Of a stretch of 64,000 nucleotides of DNA, positions 15,857-21,800 are shown piece after piece. Positions within the stretch are counted from its first letter, which is position 1. The number at the start of each line of letters is the position of its first letter. The position numbers are program-made. This DNA comes from Escherichia coli (GTDB lineage: Bacteria; Pseudomonadota; Gammaproteobacteria; Enterobacterales; Enterobacteriaceae): the NCBI RefSeq assembly GCF_001677475.2, contig NZ_CP015229.1. One strand, written 5' to 3'.

Positions 15857-18800
15857 TAATACTTTGCGGGCCGACGAGAAATGTCGGCCCGCATTATTCA
15901 GGCACTTTCGCGAATGGGTTCGATTTCATTCAACGTATCAATTAACGGCTGCGGCTTACCAATAAGATAACCCTGCATATAATCGATCCCCAAAGAGAGC
16001 ACCGCCTCGCGGATCTCTTCGTTTTCAACGTACTCTGCCACTACCAGCATTTTCTTCATTCGCGCCAGGTGGCAAATCGATGCCACTATCTGATAATCCA
16101 GACTATTTGACACAATATTGCGGATAAAACTGCCGTCAATTTTAAGCAGATCGGCATTCACATTTTTAAGCCGCGCATAGCTGGCGTAGCCGGTGCCGAA
16201 ATCATCAATCGCAATCTGGCAGCCTAATTCCTGAAGATGCTGCAAGGTGATTTGCGCCTGCTTAACATTGGTCAGAGCATTACTTTCGGTGACTTCAAAA
16301 ATAAGTTGCCACGCTTCAATCTGATATTTAGCCAGCAACTGACTGACTTCAACAGGAAAACGAGCCTGACATACCGAGGTTGGAGACAGATTAATAGCAA
16401 AACGGTGAGCGGGCATCTTCGCTCTGTTTTCAGCCATAAATTGCAGCGTATGCTCAATGACCCACATGTCGATACTCGACGATAAACCAAATTCGTGCGC
16501 GACCGGCAAGAAGCTATCGGGGCTGATCAATTCATCATTCTCACCTTTCATGCGCAGAAGAATTTCATGGTAAACATCACCACGCATACCGGTAATCGGC
16601 TGGGCCATCAGGAAAAAATGGTTGTGTTCCAGCGCCTGCTGTAGTCGATTCATCATCGCGACTTTATCTTTCAATTCGCGTTGCAAATACATTGCCCCGC
16701 GACGCTGCATATTTTCCGGGGCGTTGGTCACGATGGAAAGTTCGGCGACCGTATTTAGCTCTCCCAGCAGCAGGTAGATATGATTCACTGGCGAGCGCAC
16801 ATAGCAGTAACTGACGCCAATCTGCGGTTGCATCGGCATGCCATCCCAAAAGAAACGAAATTGCTTGAGATGGCTATCCAGTGCGGTAATGCGCTCCTGG
16901 TGCGATTCTGTATTCAGTCGCAGCGCGAGATCGTTACCCGAAAGCTGATAAACATCTTCACCCGGTTCCAGCAAGGGTGACAGCCAGTGAGAAAGTTTTT
17001 GCTTGTATTGAATCCGCAGCATGATGCCATAGTTCTTAACCAGCATTTCCATGCCAGGGATGCGTAAATAACAAAGCGCAGACCAGGGGGCATCACGCAA
17101 CGCGCGATTCAGGGCGCGAACATTTGGCAGATGAACCACCGGGTCCACATACGCAAGCCGCTGAATGCGTCTGACTACCGTTCTCTGACGGGTTGCCAGT
17201 ACAGCCATATAATTGACAATAAAAGAGAATACCAGATAACTGGAGGAGGTTATGGTCAGCTGCGTGGTATAGCCAGGATAAATGGGAATGTAATTTTGAT
17301 AGCTGTGGATGCTGATCATCAACACGACCGCCCAGAGCAGCGAAATCAGCTTATAACCATAGCGCATCGCTCCCCACATCATCAGGGGCAGCAATAATGA
17401 CAAGGTATAGTTGGTGCTAAAAATTGTGCTTTTTTCATTTAACGGCATGCATAACAGCAACAGTAAAGCACCTAATGCCAGTAGCCAGAGTGCGAACTCT
17501 TTTTTGGTGACTTTGACATCAACCTGCTGTTTTAATTGCGAATAATAGCTACGTAAATAAAATGGATTTCGCACTACCCGAATGATGAAGTAGCACAGCG
17601 GGACACCGATCAGATTACCCACCAGTAAGGCCTGATAATTGATTAAAGTCCCGAGGTTAAAAGGCATGACACCGACCAGATTTTCTCTACTCGCCAGTAA
17701 TCCTACAAATGCGGCAAACTGGAAAAGTATCAGAAACAGCGTTGCAGGAAACACAATCTGCCAGAATATACGCTGGGAAATTAAACGGGTATCACCATGT
17801 GAAACGTTGTTACGCCGGGGAGTAAAGACCCTGTAACCGCCCCAACAGAGAATGATAATGATAATAAAATTAGCCGTTAACGAGAGCGTTTCGTAAAAAC
17901 CCAGCTCTGAATATTTGCGGACAAAAATCCCTAAGGCGATCCCTGGCAATGCCGCCCAGCTGAAAAACATCATCATGCTGATCATCAGTGCCAGAGGCAG
18001 ATAAAAGAGAAAAACCTCACCGGAAGAAATATGCGCGAAAGTATTGATGTGGCCGAAAATGGGCAAGATTAAAGAAGGCAGGAACAGCGGAAGCCCCCAC
18101 CATTTATCACGTATTTTTATATAGGTTGCATTCAGTTTCATAGATGCTCAGCAGAATCCCCCACATCCTGAAGGAGGTGTATTCAGACAGGCATCCCACC
18201 TGACTTCGAATGATGATTATTCATCACTATAGAGAGCATTAATTCTAAGTGTCATATGAAAGTTCCAATTGATATATATCAAACAAAATAACCCTGATTA
18301 ATGAATTATTACGTTTATCATGTTAATTCATCATTATTACATCATCATTGTAAATAATTAAATTAACTTCCATAACATTAAAATATGTATCCACTGACGC
18401 TTTTTTACATAACGAAGAATTGACCATTTTGTCCTGTTGTGCCTTAATGTAAGTACCGTCCACTGCGTGGGACATACTTCAAGGAACCTTTTGTGAGTCA
18501 GGCAACCAGTATGCGAAAACGACACCGATTTAACAGTCGCATGACCCGTATCGTACTGCTCATCAGCTTTATCTTCTTCTTTGGCCGTTTTATCTACTCG
18601 TCCGTCGGTGCATGGCAGCACCATCAGAGCAAAAAAGAAGCTCAGCAATCCACACTCTCCGTCGAATCACCGGTACAACGTTAGCGGTTACCTTCTCCAC
18701 TTTCACAGAACATAACGGCACCTCGCTGTCGGATGCTTTTGCTCTTTGGGATTATCAAAGCGGCAGATATTCTTTCATCTTAAATTTTACGTCTTTGTCC

Positions 18801-21800
18801 TGACTGATGTTTATCCTGTTTGGCTGCGAAATAAATATAAAATTAATACATATGTTTTAATGATGTATTTTTATAAATTATTTTCCACGTGAATTTTAAT
18901 AAATTTAATCTATTCCTTTATACGCAATACATTTACTTTCCTCTTTTGATGATCTTAAATGTCTTATTTTTCGTAATGTGTATAACAAGGAATAGTGATG
19001 AAATTTAAAAAATGTCTTCTGCCTGTGGCAATGTTAGCGTCATTCACTCTGGCAGGATGCCAGTCAAATGCTGATGATCATGCCGCCGATGTTTATCAAA
19101 CCGATCAACTGAATACCAAACAAGAAACTAAAACCGTTAATATTATTTCCATTCTTCCCGCAAAAGTTGCCGTAGACAACTCCCAAAATAAACGAAACGC
19201 ACAAGCCTTCGGCGCGCTTATTGGTGCAGTCGCTGGCGGTGTAATCGGCCACAACGTGGGGTCTGGCAGCAATTCCGGAACGACGGCAGGTGCAGTTGGC
19301 GGCGGAGCTGTAGGCGCGGCAGCAGGTTCTATGGTGAATGATAAAACCTTAGTGGAAGGTGTTTCTCTAACGTATAAGGAAGGCACCAAAGTGTATACCT
19401 CCACCCAGGTGGGTAAAGAGTGCCAGTTTACGACAGGTTTAGCCGTTGTTATTACCACGACGTATAACGAAACGCGTATTCAGCCAAATACGAAATGTCC
19501 TGAAAAGAGCTAATGATCAGGAGGAGTCATGAAGAAAGTTTTTCTTTGCGCCATCTTAGCCTCCTTAAGCTATCCGGCTATCGCCTCATCATTGCAGGAT
19601 CAACTCTCGGCTGTCGCAGAAGCGGAACAGCAAGGTAAAAATGAAGAGCAAAGGCAGCATGACGAATGGGTCGCGGAGCGCAACAGGGAAATCCAGCAAG
19701 AGAAGCAACGTCGCGCAAACGCCCAGGCCGCGGCTAATAAAAGAGCGGCAACGGCAGCGGCGAATAAGAAAGCTCGTCAGGATAAACTGGACGCCGAAGC
19801 CTCTGCGGACAAAAAACGCGATCAAAGTTATGAAGATGAGCTACGCAGCTTAGAGATTCAGAAACAAAAACTGGCGCTGGCAAAAGAAGAAGCCCGCGTT
19901 AAGCGAGAAAACGAATTTATCGATCAGGAACTGAAGCACAAAGCTGCGCAAACCGATGTGGTGCAATCTGAAGCTGACGCAAACAGGAATATGACTGAGG
20001 GCGGTCGAGATCTGATGAAAAGCGTGGGCAAAGCAGAAGAGAACAAATCGGACAGCTGGTTTAACTAAGCGATGTCAGTAATTTCAAGCCTATGATTCGT
20101 GAGTATAAAAAACCCTCTGTAGTAACAGAGGGTTTTGTTCATTCATAGTGCAGGGTCAAATCATTCCCACTCAATAGTCGCTGGTGGCTTGCCGCTGATG
20201 TCATACACCACGCGGGAAATACCGTTCACTTCATTGATAATGCGGTTGGAAACGCGACCGAGGAAGTCATACGGCAGGTGCGCCCAGTGTGCGGTCATAA
20301 AGTCGATGGTTTCGACAGCACGCAGAGAAACAACCCAGTCATACTTACGACCATCGCCCATTACACCAACGGAACGTACCGGCAGGAAGACGGTGAACGC
20401 CTGGCTGACTTTGTCGTACAGGTCCGCTTTACGCAGTTCTTCAATAAAGATGGCGTCAGCACGGCGCAGCAGGTCGCAGTACTCTTTCTTCACTTCGCCC
20501 AGTACACGAACGCCGAGGCCTGGTCCCGGGAACGGGTGACGGTACAGCATGTCGTACGGCAGGCCCAGCTCCAGACCAATCTTACGCACTTCGTCTTTGA
20601 ACAGCTCTTTCAGCGGTTCAACCAGCCCCATCTTCATCTCTTTCGGCAGGCCGCCCACGTTGTGGTGAGATTTGATGACGTGTGCTTTACCGGTTGCAGA
20701 CGCCGCAGATTCGATAACGTCAGGGTAGATAGTACCCTGCGCCAGCCACTTCACGTCTTCCAGTTTCAGCGCTTCTTCATCGAATACTTCAACGAAAACG
20801 CGCCCGATGATTTTACGTTTTGCTTCCGGATCGTTTTCGCCAGCCAGCGCTGACAGGAAGCGATCTTCTGCCGGAACGTGAACAATATTGAGACCAAAGT
20901 GATCGCCAAACATATCCAGAACCTGCTCTGCTTCGTTGAGGCGCAGCAGGCCATTGTCGACGAATACGCAAGTCAGGTTTTTACCGATAGCGCGGTGCAG
21001 CAGCATTGCGGTTACGGAGGAATCCACACCACCAGAGAGGCCGAGGATGACTTTATCGTCGCCTACCTGCTCGCGGATGCGAGCTACAGCATCGTCGATA
21101 ATTTTCGCTGGCGTCCACAGGGCTTCACACTGGCAGATATCACGCACAAAACGCTCCAGCATGCGCATACCCTGGCGGGTGTGAGTCACTTCCGGGTGGA
21201 ACTGTACGCCATAGAAGCGTTTTTCTTCGTTAGCCATAATGGCAAACGGGCAGCTTTCGGTGCTGGCTACGGTGACGAAGTCGGACGGGATAGCGGTAAC
21301 TTTATCGCCGTGGCTCATCCAGACATCGAGCAGCGGTTTACCGTCTGCGGTCAGCGCATCTTCGATACCGCGAACCAGGGCGCTGTCGTTTACGACTTCA
21401 ACCTGCGCGTAGCCAAATTCACGTTCGTTAGAGGCTTCAACGTGACCGCCCAACTGCATTGCCATGGTCTGCATACCATAGCAAACGCCGAATACCGGTA
21501 CGCCTGCTTCAAAAACATACTGCGGCGCACGCGGGCTGTTTTCTTCGGTGGTGCTTTCCGGGCCGCCGGAAAGAATAATGCCGCTTGGATTGAAGTCACG
21601 AATTTGTGCTTCTGTCACATCCCATGCCCACAGTTCGCAGTAAACGCCCAGCTCACGCACGCGGCGCGCAACCAGTTGAGTATACTGGGAACCGAAGTCC
21701 AGAATGAGGATGCGATGCTTATGAATGTTTTCCGTCATTGACGCTTATTCCGAGGCAAGTGAAACAGATAATATAAATCGCCCGACATGAAGTCGGGCGA

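What the first reader, a model, noticed from the sequence alone, without database searches (positions are those of the whole stretch)
18142..18994. AT-rich, gene-poor interval around the small membrane protein gene yfgG
About 850 bp between pdeF and yfgH holds only the 63-codon yfgG ORF; the rest is strongly AT-rich (for example 18290-18370 and 18820-18960) with long A/T tracts. Such regions often hide small proteins or sRNAs and are H-NS/Fis-rich. I could not pin down a second convincing small ORF by eye.
Basis: seen in the sequence. Interest (0 to 1): 0.2.

Follow-up and report, generated by a model that had tools for sequence, protein, structure and literature searches.

The report
Ordinary AT-rich promoter DNA around yfgG
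The AT-rich gaps on either side of the small E. coli gene yfgG are ordinary regulatory DNA (a shared two-way promoter region on one side, the leader of a lineage-specific gene cassette on the other), and I found no support for a second hidden small protein or small RNA.

Summary
The interval 18142-18994 lies between pdeF and yfgH. It holds only yfgG (63 codons, DUF2633) and has two tracts of 20-25% GC in a 51.7% GC window.

Spacer 1 (18142-18492) is a divergent promoter region kept at about 350 bp across Enterobacteriaceae. It holds the published class II FNR promoter of pdeF, with the FNR box at 18269-18282 and a TAGAAT -10 element. It also holds a nearly invariant extended -10 promoter for yfgG, a conserved 5' hairpin, and an AT-rich centre that published work flags as H-NS-bound.

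Spacer 2 (18685-18994) starts a lineage-specific yfgH-yfgI insertion of about 1.4 kb. Published Term-seq places the yfgG mRNA 3' end at about 18776. The same study places a Rho-dependent termination zone near 18892.

The one extra gene that NCBI's pipeline calls here is a 50-aa ORF (18323-18475, minus strand). It shows no purifying selection, is absent outside Escherichia, and is no longer than chance allows. All other ORFs in the interval break in close relatives. There is no Rfam hit and no sRNA-like 3' end.

Verdict: real but ordinary, and largely already described.

The parts
18142..18234 (-). pdeF 5' leader (about 93 nt), inferred from the FNR box position. It contains the conserved block GTCAGGTGGGATGCCTGTCTGA and positionally conserved hairpins.
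   Evidence: Alignment of 22 genera. RNAalifold gives 10 pairs with little covariation. The single-sequence fold has z = -0.63. Leader length is 83-109 nt in 32 genera. The TSS is inferred, not measured here.
18242..18247 (-). pdeF -10 hexamer TAGAAT (TAAAAT in most genera).
   Evidence: Conserved block GATTTTAGTTATC. PMC3718329 names TAGAAT as the -10 element of the class II FNR promoter.
18269..18282 (.). FNR box TTGATATATATCAA, centred at -41.5 of the pdeF promoter.
   Evidence: It is the only perfect TTGAT-N4-ATCAA in 64 kb, where 0.05 is expected. It is conserved in 32 of 33 genera. Published as a class II FNR site (PMC3718329).
18285..18400 (.). AT-rich centre of the divergent promoter region (GC about 0.2). 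The sequence varies between genera but the overall spacer length is kept. It contains a partly conserved element ATAAC-N7-ATG (18372-18390), which is a perfect palindrome AACATTAATTAATGTT in Klebsiella and Kluyvera.
   Evidence: H-NS is flagged for the yfgF/yfgG spacer in PMC3946193. PgrR gSELEX hit in PMC5934670.
18323..18475 (-). 50-aa ORF annotated by PGAP as 'hypothetical protein' WP_000017552.1. Judged a spurious gene call that overlaps the yfgG promoter and 5' UTR in antisense.
   Evidence: annotation. (absent from the curated K-12 record). (no coding signature, not conserved, length within chance). (no Pfam family). (only unnamed E. coli entries).
18420..18448 (+). yfgG promoter: -35 TTGACC (18420-18425), 17-bp spacer, extended -10 TGCCTTAAT (18440-18448). 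A conserved TTTTTACAT lies just upstream (18402-18410).
   Evidence: Nearly invariant across 22-33 genera. The same hexamers are listed in PMC3946193. The sigma-S ChIP-seq peak and yfgG TSS 2627275 (U00096.2) in PMC4447067 map to about window 18455.
18455..18492 (+). yfgG 5' UTR (about 38 nt): 5'-proximal hairpin 18458-18473, SD AAGGA 18481-18485, invariant GTG start at 18493.
   Evidence: A hairpin is predicted at the same place in nearly all of 35 orthologues. The stem is conserved (GCCC/GGGY), the loop varies, and E. coli has U-A where others have C-G. SD and GTG are invariant.
18493..18684 (+). yfgG, 63 aa, DUF2633, a small membrane protein needed for Ni/Co tolerance.
   Evidence: Pfam PF11119, E = 3.6e-28. 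pN/pS 0.03-0.14. Dub-seq and RB-TnSeq phenotype in PMC6338753.
18685..18776 (+). yfgG 3' UTR with terminator hairpin 18738-18767 and tail UAUUCUUUC. The mRNA 3' end is at about 18776.
   Evidence: Fold. Term-seq 3' end at MG1655 2629573(+) in all three conditions (PMC7815308 suppl. 1). The hairpin is kept in E. coli-type lineages only.
18777..18994 (+). AT-rich leader of the yfgH-yfgI cassette. It holds a Rho-dependent termination zone (peak about 18892), a putative yfgH promoter (TTTACT 18932-18937, 17 bp, TTAAAT 18955-18960) and SD AAGGA 18987-18991.
   Evidence: Rho region at 2629689(+), Rho score 8.5, p = 1e-48 (PMC7815308 suppl. 2). Blocks conserved across Escherichia and C. amalonaticus. 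The promoter is inferred from conservation only.
18685..20106 (+). Lineage-specific insertion of about 1.4 kb (AT-rich leader, yfgH and yfgI) in a variable slot between yfgG and the bidirectional terminator shared with guaA.
   Evidence: yfgH and yfgI are found only in Escherichia and C. amalonaticus. Homology to genera without them stops at 18683 and resumes at about 20107. Identity drops sharply at the yfgG stop codon.

Best explanation
The interval is two ordinary non-coding regulatory spacers flanking one real small gene.

Spacer 1 is a conserved divergent promoter region. To the left, FNR bound at 18269-18282 activates a class II promoter (-10 TAGAAT) and gives pdeF mRNA a leader of about 93 nt. 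To the right, a nearly invariant TTGACC-17-TGCCTTAAT promoter, which published work reports as bound by sigma-70 and sigma-S holoenzymes, starts yfgG mRNA at about 18455. That mRNA has a 5' hairpin and a good SD. The AT-rich centre separates the two promoters and is a nucleoid-protein (H-NS) target.

yfgG mRNA is monocistronic, about 320 nt, and ends at an intrinsic-type terminator at about 18776.

Spacer 2 is the AT-rich leader of the laterally exchanged yfgH-yfgI cassette. Read-through from yfgG is stopped there by Rho, and yfgH probably has its own weak promoter at about 18932-18960.

Shown here or published: the anatomy, the conservation, the FNR site, the 3' end and the Rho dependence. 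Inferred: the exact pdeF TSS, the yfgH promoter, H-NS occupancy of spacer 2 and the function of the hairpins.
For: Locus identity. AT-richness. The pdeF/yfgG divergent pair has a spacer of about 350 bp in 33 genera. Conserved blocks coincide with promoter elements. The FNR consensus is unique in the window and is published as class II at -41.5. The yfgG promoter hexamers, the H-NS flag and the sigma-S TSS are published. Term-seq 3' end and Rho region. Terminator fold. Insertion boundaries and mosaic identity. No coding signal in any other ORF. No Rfam family. No RIL-seq sRNA prediction. The curated K-12 record has no other gene or RNA here.
Against: No ribosome-profiling or TSS table could be read for this locus. 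The Stringer table is truncated at about 265 kb and the Weaver supplement is not held. Translation of a non-conserved sORF therefore cannot be excluded. The Term-seq conditions were aerobic, so pdeF-side or anaerobic transcripts would be missed. H-NS occupancy rests on one gSELEX flag for spacer 1, and the canonical high-affinity motif is absent. The simple promoter scan found no more sites than in shuffles. The 50-aa ORF is open in all E. coli-type lineages examined.
Confidence: 0.85

Rival explanations
1. The PGAP-annotated 50-aa ORF (18323-18475, minus strand) is a genuine, young, Escherichia-restricted small protein. It would be translated from an antisense transcript that starts inside or downstream of yfgG.
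For: It is annotated in nearly all of about 5400 E. coli genomes. It is open with an ATG start in the E. coli-type and MOD1 lineages. Promoter-like sites lie on the minus strand at 18813-18784 and 18778-18751.
Against: pN/pS of 0.38-0.80 cannot be told apart from non-coding frames of the same DNA. The frame and length are not kept in Citrobacter, Klebsiella, Kluyvera and other genera. 36% of shuffles give an ORF of >=50 aa. Reading the sequence, there is no SD at a usable distance from the ATG. There is no Pfam family. It is absent from the curated K-12 annotation, which does include validated small proteins. There are no minus-strand Term-seq 3' ends. It lies across the conserved yfgG promoter, which explains why its DNA is conserved.
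Confidence: 0.05
2. The interval encodes a regulatory RNA. This would be either a 3'UTR-derived sRNA cut from the 92-nt yfgG 3' UTR (18685-18776) or an independent sRNA in the AT-rich tracts.
For: There is a strong 'orphan' Term-seq 3' end at about 18776 in all three conditions, with a terminator hairpin. 3'UTR-derived sRNAs are a known class.
Against: No Rfam match, even at E <= 10. No entry for yfgG, yfgH or pdeF in the RIL-seq-based sRNA prediction tables. The 3' UTR is not conserved beyond E. coli-type lineages. The fold is no more stable than shuffles, z = 0.03. The AT-rich tracts contain no G+C-rich terminator hairpins. The curated K-12 record has no ncRNA here.
Confidence: 0.06
3. The conserved UTR structures are cis-regulatory RNA elements that tune translation or stability in response to a signal such as metal stress, oxygen or an sRNA. 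They are the yfgG 5' hairpin at 18458-18473 and the hairpins of the pdeF leader. This adds to the main explanation and does not replace it.
For: The yfgG hairpin is present at the same position in nearly all of 35 orthologues. Its loop varies and there is one compensatory pair change. The pdeF leader length and the block GGATGCCTG are conserved.
Against: The stems are short (4-6 bp), and most pairs never vary, so they say little either way. The pdeF 5' hairpin is missing in Phytobacter and Kosakonia, and the mean z is only -0.64. There is no Rfam family. A 5'-terminal hairpin can act simply as a generic mRNA stabiliser.
Confidence: 0.15

Closest known systems
Class II FNR-dependent promoter of yfgF/pdeF (Lacey et al. 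2010, as summarised in PMC3718329)
   Same: Same gene, same FNR box (TTGAT-N4-ATCAA at -41.5) and same -10 element (TAGAAT). This window simply contains that promoter.
   Different: Nothing differs. New here is only its conservation in 32 of 33 enterobacterial genera, together with a leader of 83-109 nt.
Divergent intergenic promoter regions bound by H-NS in E. coli (gSELEX catalogue, PMC3946193)
   Same: AT-rich spacer, back-to-back sigma-70 promoters, H-NS flag. The yfgG hexamers listed there match the conserved ones found here.
   Different: The pdeF promoter predicted in that catalogue (ATGACA-18-TATAGT) is not the conserved FNR-dependent one. The H-NS high-affinity motif is absent at <=1 mismatch.
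AT-rich laterally acquired DNA silenced by H-NS and Rho (established from work on xenogeneic silencing and on bicyclomycin-sensitive termination)
   Same: Spacer 2 with yfgHI is restricted to a few lineages. Its identity is mosaic, its leader is AT-rich, and a published Rho-dependent termination region lies inside the leader.
   Different: The cassette's coding GC (0.47-0.50) is close to the genome average, and no mobility genes or repeats flank it. H-NS binding to spacer 2 was not shown.
Validated E. coli small proteins of <=50 aa and 3'UTR-derived sRNAs
   Same: The size and location of the 50-aa ORF and of the yfgG 3' UTR resemble such genes.
   Different: Both lack conservation, a coding signature, a usable RBS, an Rfam or RIL-seq record and curated annotation.

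Membership tests
Class II FNR-dependent promoter | FNR consensus TTGAT-N4-ATCAA | tested here: met
   Perfect match at 18269-18282, unique in 64 kb where 0.05 is expected. Conserved in 32 of 33 genera.
Class II FNR-dependent promoter | Box centred near -41.5, with a -10 hexamer at the matching distance | tested here: met
   TAGAAT at 18247-18242 (minus strand) puts the TSS at about 18234-18235, 41.5 bp from the box centre. The same assignment is published.
Class II FNR-dependent promoter | Anaerobic, FNR-dependent expression | not testable with these tools
   Reported in the literature (PMC3718329 citing Lacey 2010; PMC4207228).
Bona fide small-protein gene (for the 50-aa ORF at 18323-18475) | Reading frame kept intact in related species | tested here: not met
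   Intact only within Escherichia. Other genera have different frames and lengths or no ORF.
Bona fide small-protein gene (for the 50-aa ORF at 18323-18475) | Excess of synonymous over non-synonymous change | tested here: not met
   pN/pS is 0.38-0.80, against 0.44-0.84 in control frames and 0.03-0.14 in yfgG.
Bona fide small-protein gene (for the 50-aa ORF at 18323-18475) | Length beyond chance for the local composition | tested here: not met
   36% of dinucleotide shuffles have an ORF of >=50 aa.
Bona fide small-protein gene (for the 50-aa ORF at 18323-18475) | Evidence of translation (ribosome profiling, tagging) | not testable with these tools
   The held sORF table is truncated before this locus, and the other supplement is not held.
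Trans-acting sRNA gene | Match to a described RNA family | tested here: not met
   No Rfam hit with E < 0.7, and all hits are far below the gathering score.
Trans-acting sRNA gene | Discrete transcript with its own 3' end, not attributable to an mRNA | tested here: not met
   The only 3' ends listed are 2629424(+) and 2629573(+). Both are downstream of the yfgG TSS on the same strand.
Trans-acting sRNA gene | Sequence or structure conserved beyond close relatives | tested here: not met
   Spacer 2 and the 3' UTR are 54-63% identical even within Escherichia. Fold z = 0.03.
Laterally acquired AT-rich DNA under H-NS/Rho control (spacer 2 with yfgHI) | Patchy phylogenetic distribution with sharp homology boundaries | tested here: met
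Laterally acquired AT-rich DNA under H-NS/Rho control (spacer 2 with yfgHI) | Rho-dependent termination within the element | tested here: met
   Not tested here; taken from published DirectRNA-seq with and without bicyclomycin. The region peaks at 2629689(+), Rho score 8.5.
Laterally acquired AT-rich DNA under H-NS/Rho control (spacer 2 with yfgHI) | H-NS occupancy | not testable with these tools
   Only spacer 1 carries a published H-NS flag. The motif search was negative.
DUF2633 / YfgG family | Pfam PF11119 above the gathering score | tested here: met
   97.6 bits against a cut-off of 25.

The most novel reading that the evidence does not exclude
The nearly invariant yfgG promoter, the upstream palindrome-like element (18372-18390) and the conserved 5'-proximal hairpin would together form a dedicated control module. 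It would be conserved across the family and would set expression of the Ni/Co-tolerance protein YfgG in response to metal or envelope stress, through an unidentified factor. Separately, the structured pdeF leader would be a post-transcriptional control point for this c-di-GMP phosphodiesterase.
Probability: 0.15. Interest if true: 0.35.

Novelty: already known. Interest (0 to 1): 0.12.

Why it matters
It matters little beyond annotation hygiene. The analysis shows that a 'hypothetical protein' carried in thousands of RefSeq E. coli genomes (WP_000017552.1) is most likely a gene-caller artefact lying on the yfgG promoter. It also shows that AT-rich intergenic DNA here is explained by promoters, nucleoid-protein and Rho control, and a laterally exchanged cassette. 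It gives a compact map of the control region of yfgG, a gene with a reproducible Ni/Co phenotype and no known regulation. That map covers the promoter, 5' hairpin, terminator and read-through barrier, and it could guide reporter experiments.

Tried and rejected
(1) Rfam scan at E <= 10: only noise, such as eukaryotic snoRNA and lncRNA models.

(2) Consensus promoter and terminator scan: counts were no higher than in shuffles. It found the gSELEX-type pdeF promoter and a weak hairpin at 18716-18731, which is not the one at the Term-seq end.

(3) Stringer 2021 sORF table: the held copy is cut at about 265 kb of the genome, so it is uninformative. The Weaver 2019 and Melamed 2016 supplements are not held.

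(4) RNAalifold on the yfgG 5' UTR failed because MAFFT misaligned the variable loop. I replaced it with per-sequence folds.

(5) I first read the broken 50-aa ORF in E. albertii as evidence against it. I rejected that, because the break is a strain-specific IS1 insertion at a contig end.

(6) A 3-codon uORF (ATG CCT GTC TGA) and a 13-codon uORF in the pdeF leader: the ATG or the frame is lost in Superficieibacter, UBA7338 and Enterobacter R1, so I rejected both.

(7) H-NS high-affinity motif TCGWTWAATT: no hit in the interval.

(8) By eye I compared the upstream palindrome and the leader inverted repeat with recalled ArcA, NsrR, CRP, Fur and IHF consensus sequences. None was a convincing match and none is claimed.

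(9) The 96-aa minus-strand ORF (18358-18648) gives tblastn hits in all genera, but only because it is antisense to the conserved yfgG CDS.

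
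Full report
Observation. The window is E. coli chromosome. The stretch 18100-19050 matches 5422 of 5426 complete genomes at 95-99.7% identity. Annotation gives pdeF (15898-18141, minus), yfgG (18493-18684, plus), yfgH (from 18995), yfgI and guaA. The 853-bp interval has GC 0.361 in a window of GC 0.517. The sd of 100-bp windows is 0.062. The three longest pure A/T runs of the window (18-20 nt) lie at 18829-18909. One amendment: NCBI's PGAP calls a second CDS here in almost every genome, a 50-aa 'hypothetical protein' at 18323-18475 on the minus strand. The curated K-12 record does not carry it.

Spacer 1 (18142-18492). A scan of one genome per species with YfgG returned 37 loci from Escherichia, Citrobacter, Klebsiella, Raoultella, Kluyvera, Enterobacter, Kosakonia, Phytobacter, Pluralibacter, Franconibacter and others. 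In all of them pdeF and yfgG are divergent neighbours, and the spacer is 338-366 bp in most and 312 bp in three. The multiple alignment shows conserved blocks separated by a variable AT-rich centre.

The blocks on the pdeF side are these:
- the pdeF start and a leader block (GTCAGGTGGGATGCCTGTCTGA on the mRNA strand);
- a -10 element (TAGAAT in E. coli, TAAAAT in most genera; 18242-18247);
- a perfect FNR box, TTGATATATATCAA, at 18269-18282.

That box is the only such site in the window, where 0.05 is expected, and it is kept in 32 of 33 genera. This is the published class II FNR promoter of yfgF/pdeF, with the box at -41.5 and TAGAAT as the -10 element (PMC3718329). It implies a leader of about 93 nt.

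On the yfgG side, TTGACC (18420-18425), a 17-bp spacer and TGCCTTAAT (18440-18448) are almost invariant. They equal the hexamers listed for yfgG in the sigma-70 genomic SELEX catalogue, which also flags H-NS in this spacer (PMC3946193). A sigma-S ChIP-seq study lists a yfgG TSS at 2627275 in the older coordinate system (PMC4447067), which maps to about window 18455. That is 7 nt after the -10 element. The 38-nt 5' UTR begins with a short hairpin (18458-18473). The hairpin is predicted at the same position in nearly all orthologues. Its stem is conserved, its loop varies, and E. coli has a U-A pair where others have C-G. An AAGGA Shine-Dalgarno sequence and an invariant GTG follow.

The 50-aa ORF. 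It runs antisense across the yfgG 5' UTR and promoter, which is why its DNA is conserved. Against three Escherichia lineages its pN/pS is 0.38-0.80. That falls inside the range of the five non-coding frames of the same DNA (0.44-0.84), while yfgG gives 0.03-0.14. Outside Escherichia the frame and length are not kept. An ORF of at least 50 aa arises in 36% of dinucleotide shuffles of the spacer. It has no Pfam family and only unnamed E. coli entries in the protein collection. Its apparent disruption in E. albertii is not evidence either way, because an IS1 end abuts the yfgG -35 element in that strain. I conclude that it is a gene-caller artefact, with about 5% left for a young, unconstrained but translated ORF.

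Spacer 2 (18685-18994). yfgH and yfgI occur only in Escherichia and in one Citrobacter amalonaticus genome. In genera that lack them, homology to E. coli stops at the yfgG stop codon (18683). It resumes at about 20107, at the bidirectional terminator shared with guaA. Within Escherichia, identity changes abruptly at the same point. The MOD1 lineage is 98.4% identical in yfgG and 94% in spacer 1, but 63% in spacer 2, 77% in yfgH and 82.5% in yfgI. The AT-rich tract is therefore the leader of a cassette of about 1.4 kb that has been exchanged or replaced laterally. Every version keeps a leader GC of 0.28-0.31.

Published Term-seq (PMC7815308) lists two 3' ends in and around the interval, both on the plus strand:
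- 2629573, seen in all three growth conditions, which maps to about window 18776;
- 2629424, internal to yfgG, seen in one condition.

The first lies 9 nt after a 12-bp hairpin (18738-18767) and within a U-rich tail. yfgG mRNA is therefore a monocistronic transcript of about 320 nt with a 92-nt 3' UTR. The same study's bicyclomycin experiment lists a Rho-dependent termination region peaking at 2629689(+), about window 18892. Downstream coverage rises from 40 to 667 when Rho is inhibited. Blocks conserved among all cassette versions fit a yfgH promoter (TTTACT-17-TTAAAT, 18932-18960) and an SD. That promoter is inferred only. The three ORFs in this spacer (63, 48 and 39 aa) carry stop codons or lose their start in K-12 or in the two other E. 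coli-type lineages.

RNA genes. Rfam gives only noise. The 3' UTR folds no better than shuffles. A RIL-seq-based sRNA prediction set has no entry for these genes. The curated K-12 record has no ncRNA here. The pdeF leader shows positionally conserved hairpins, but statistical support is weak: z = -0.63 for E. coli, and a mean of -0.64 for the 5' hairpin across genera, which is absent in some.

Conclusion. The AT-richness is real and extreme for this window, but it is accounted for by known kinds of non-coding DNA. These are a conserved divergent promoter region with an H-NS-flagged centre, and the Rho-policed leader of a lineage-specific cassette. No second small protein or sRNA is supported. 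Most of the elements are already in the literature. What is added here is modest:
- the case against WP_000017552.1;
- the cassette boundaries;
- the family-wide conservation of the yfgG promoter and 5' hairpin.

Limits. No ribosome-profiling or TSS table could be read for this locus. The Term-seq conditions were aerobic. Fis binding, and H-NS binding to spacer 2, were not tested.

Noticed in passing
window 18685-20106: yfgH-yfgI and their AT-rich leader form a cassette found only in Escherichia and one Citrobacter amalonaticus. Its boundaries are sharp, at the yfgG stop codon and at the guaA terminator. There are two allelic forms about 77% identical, set in otherwise 94-98% identical flanks, so the yfgG|guaA junction is a variable slot across Enterobacteriaceae.
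   Followed up: partly
L004 (E. albertii NBRC 107761) 170-270; equivalent to window ~18411: An IS1 end (…ATCAGTAAGTTGGCAGCATCACC) abuts 8 bp upstream of the yfgG -35 hexamer, at a contig end. Separately, an IS5 insertion at MG1655 2,629,042 arose in a gallium-resistance evolution experiment (PMC6928379). That position maps to window ~18245, inside the pdeF -10 element. The spacer seems to be an IS target.
   Followed up: partly
window 18372-18410: An element is conserved upstream of the yfgG promoter. ATAAC-N7-ATG is a perfect 16-bp palindrome, AACATTAATTAATGTT, in Klebsiella, Kluyvera and Enterobacter, and TTTTTACAT lies next to the -35 element. No known transcription-factor consensus matched by eye.
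   Followed up: no
window 18142-18234, minus strand: The pdeF leader of about 93 nt has a conserved block (GGATGCCTG) and an inverted repeat at +7 to +26. The sequence of the repeat differs between genera (GTGATGA…TCATCAC in E. coli, CCGCG…CGCGG in Klebsiella and Kluyvera). It could be an RNA hairpin or a DNA operator.
   Followed up: partly
window 36271-36510 (and ~24800-36460): The third AT-rich tract of the window lies upstream of a 731-aa inverse-autotransporter gene (IAT_beta, 34074-36269, minus), next to yfgJ (36461-36676) and der. The window is not collinear with K-12 here. About 11 kb between xseA and yfgJ appears strain-specific. From memory only, it resembles the Salmonella CS54 / sinH-type island.
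   Followed up: partly
window 18995-19000: yfgH is annotated from GTG 18995. The SD AAGGA (18987-18991) is better spaced for the adjacent ATG at 18998, which would give MKFKK… with the lipobox LAGC.
   Followed up: no
window ~16102 (MG1655 2626899, plus strand): The published Rho-termination table lists a Rho-dependent region antisense to pdeF (Rho score 8.8). This implies antisense transcription inside pdeF that Rho suppresses.
   Followed up: no
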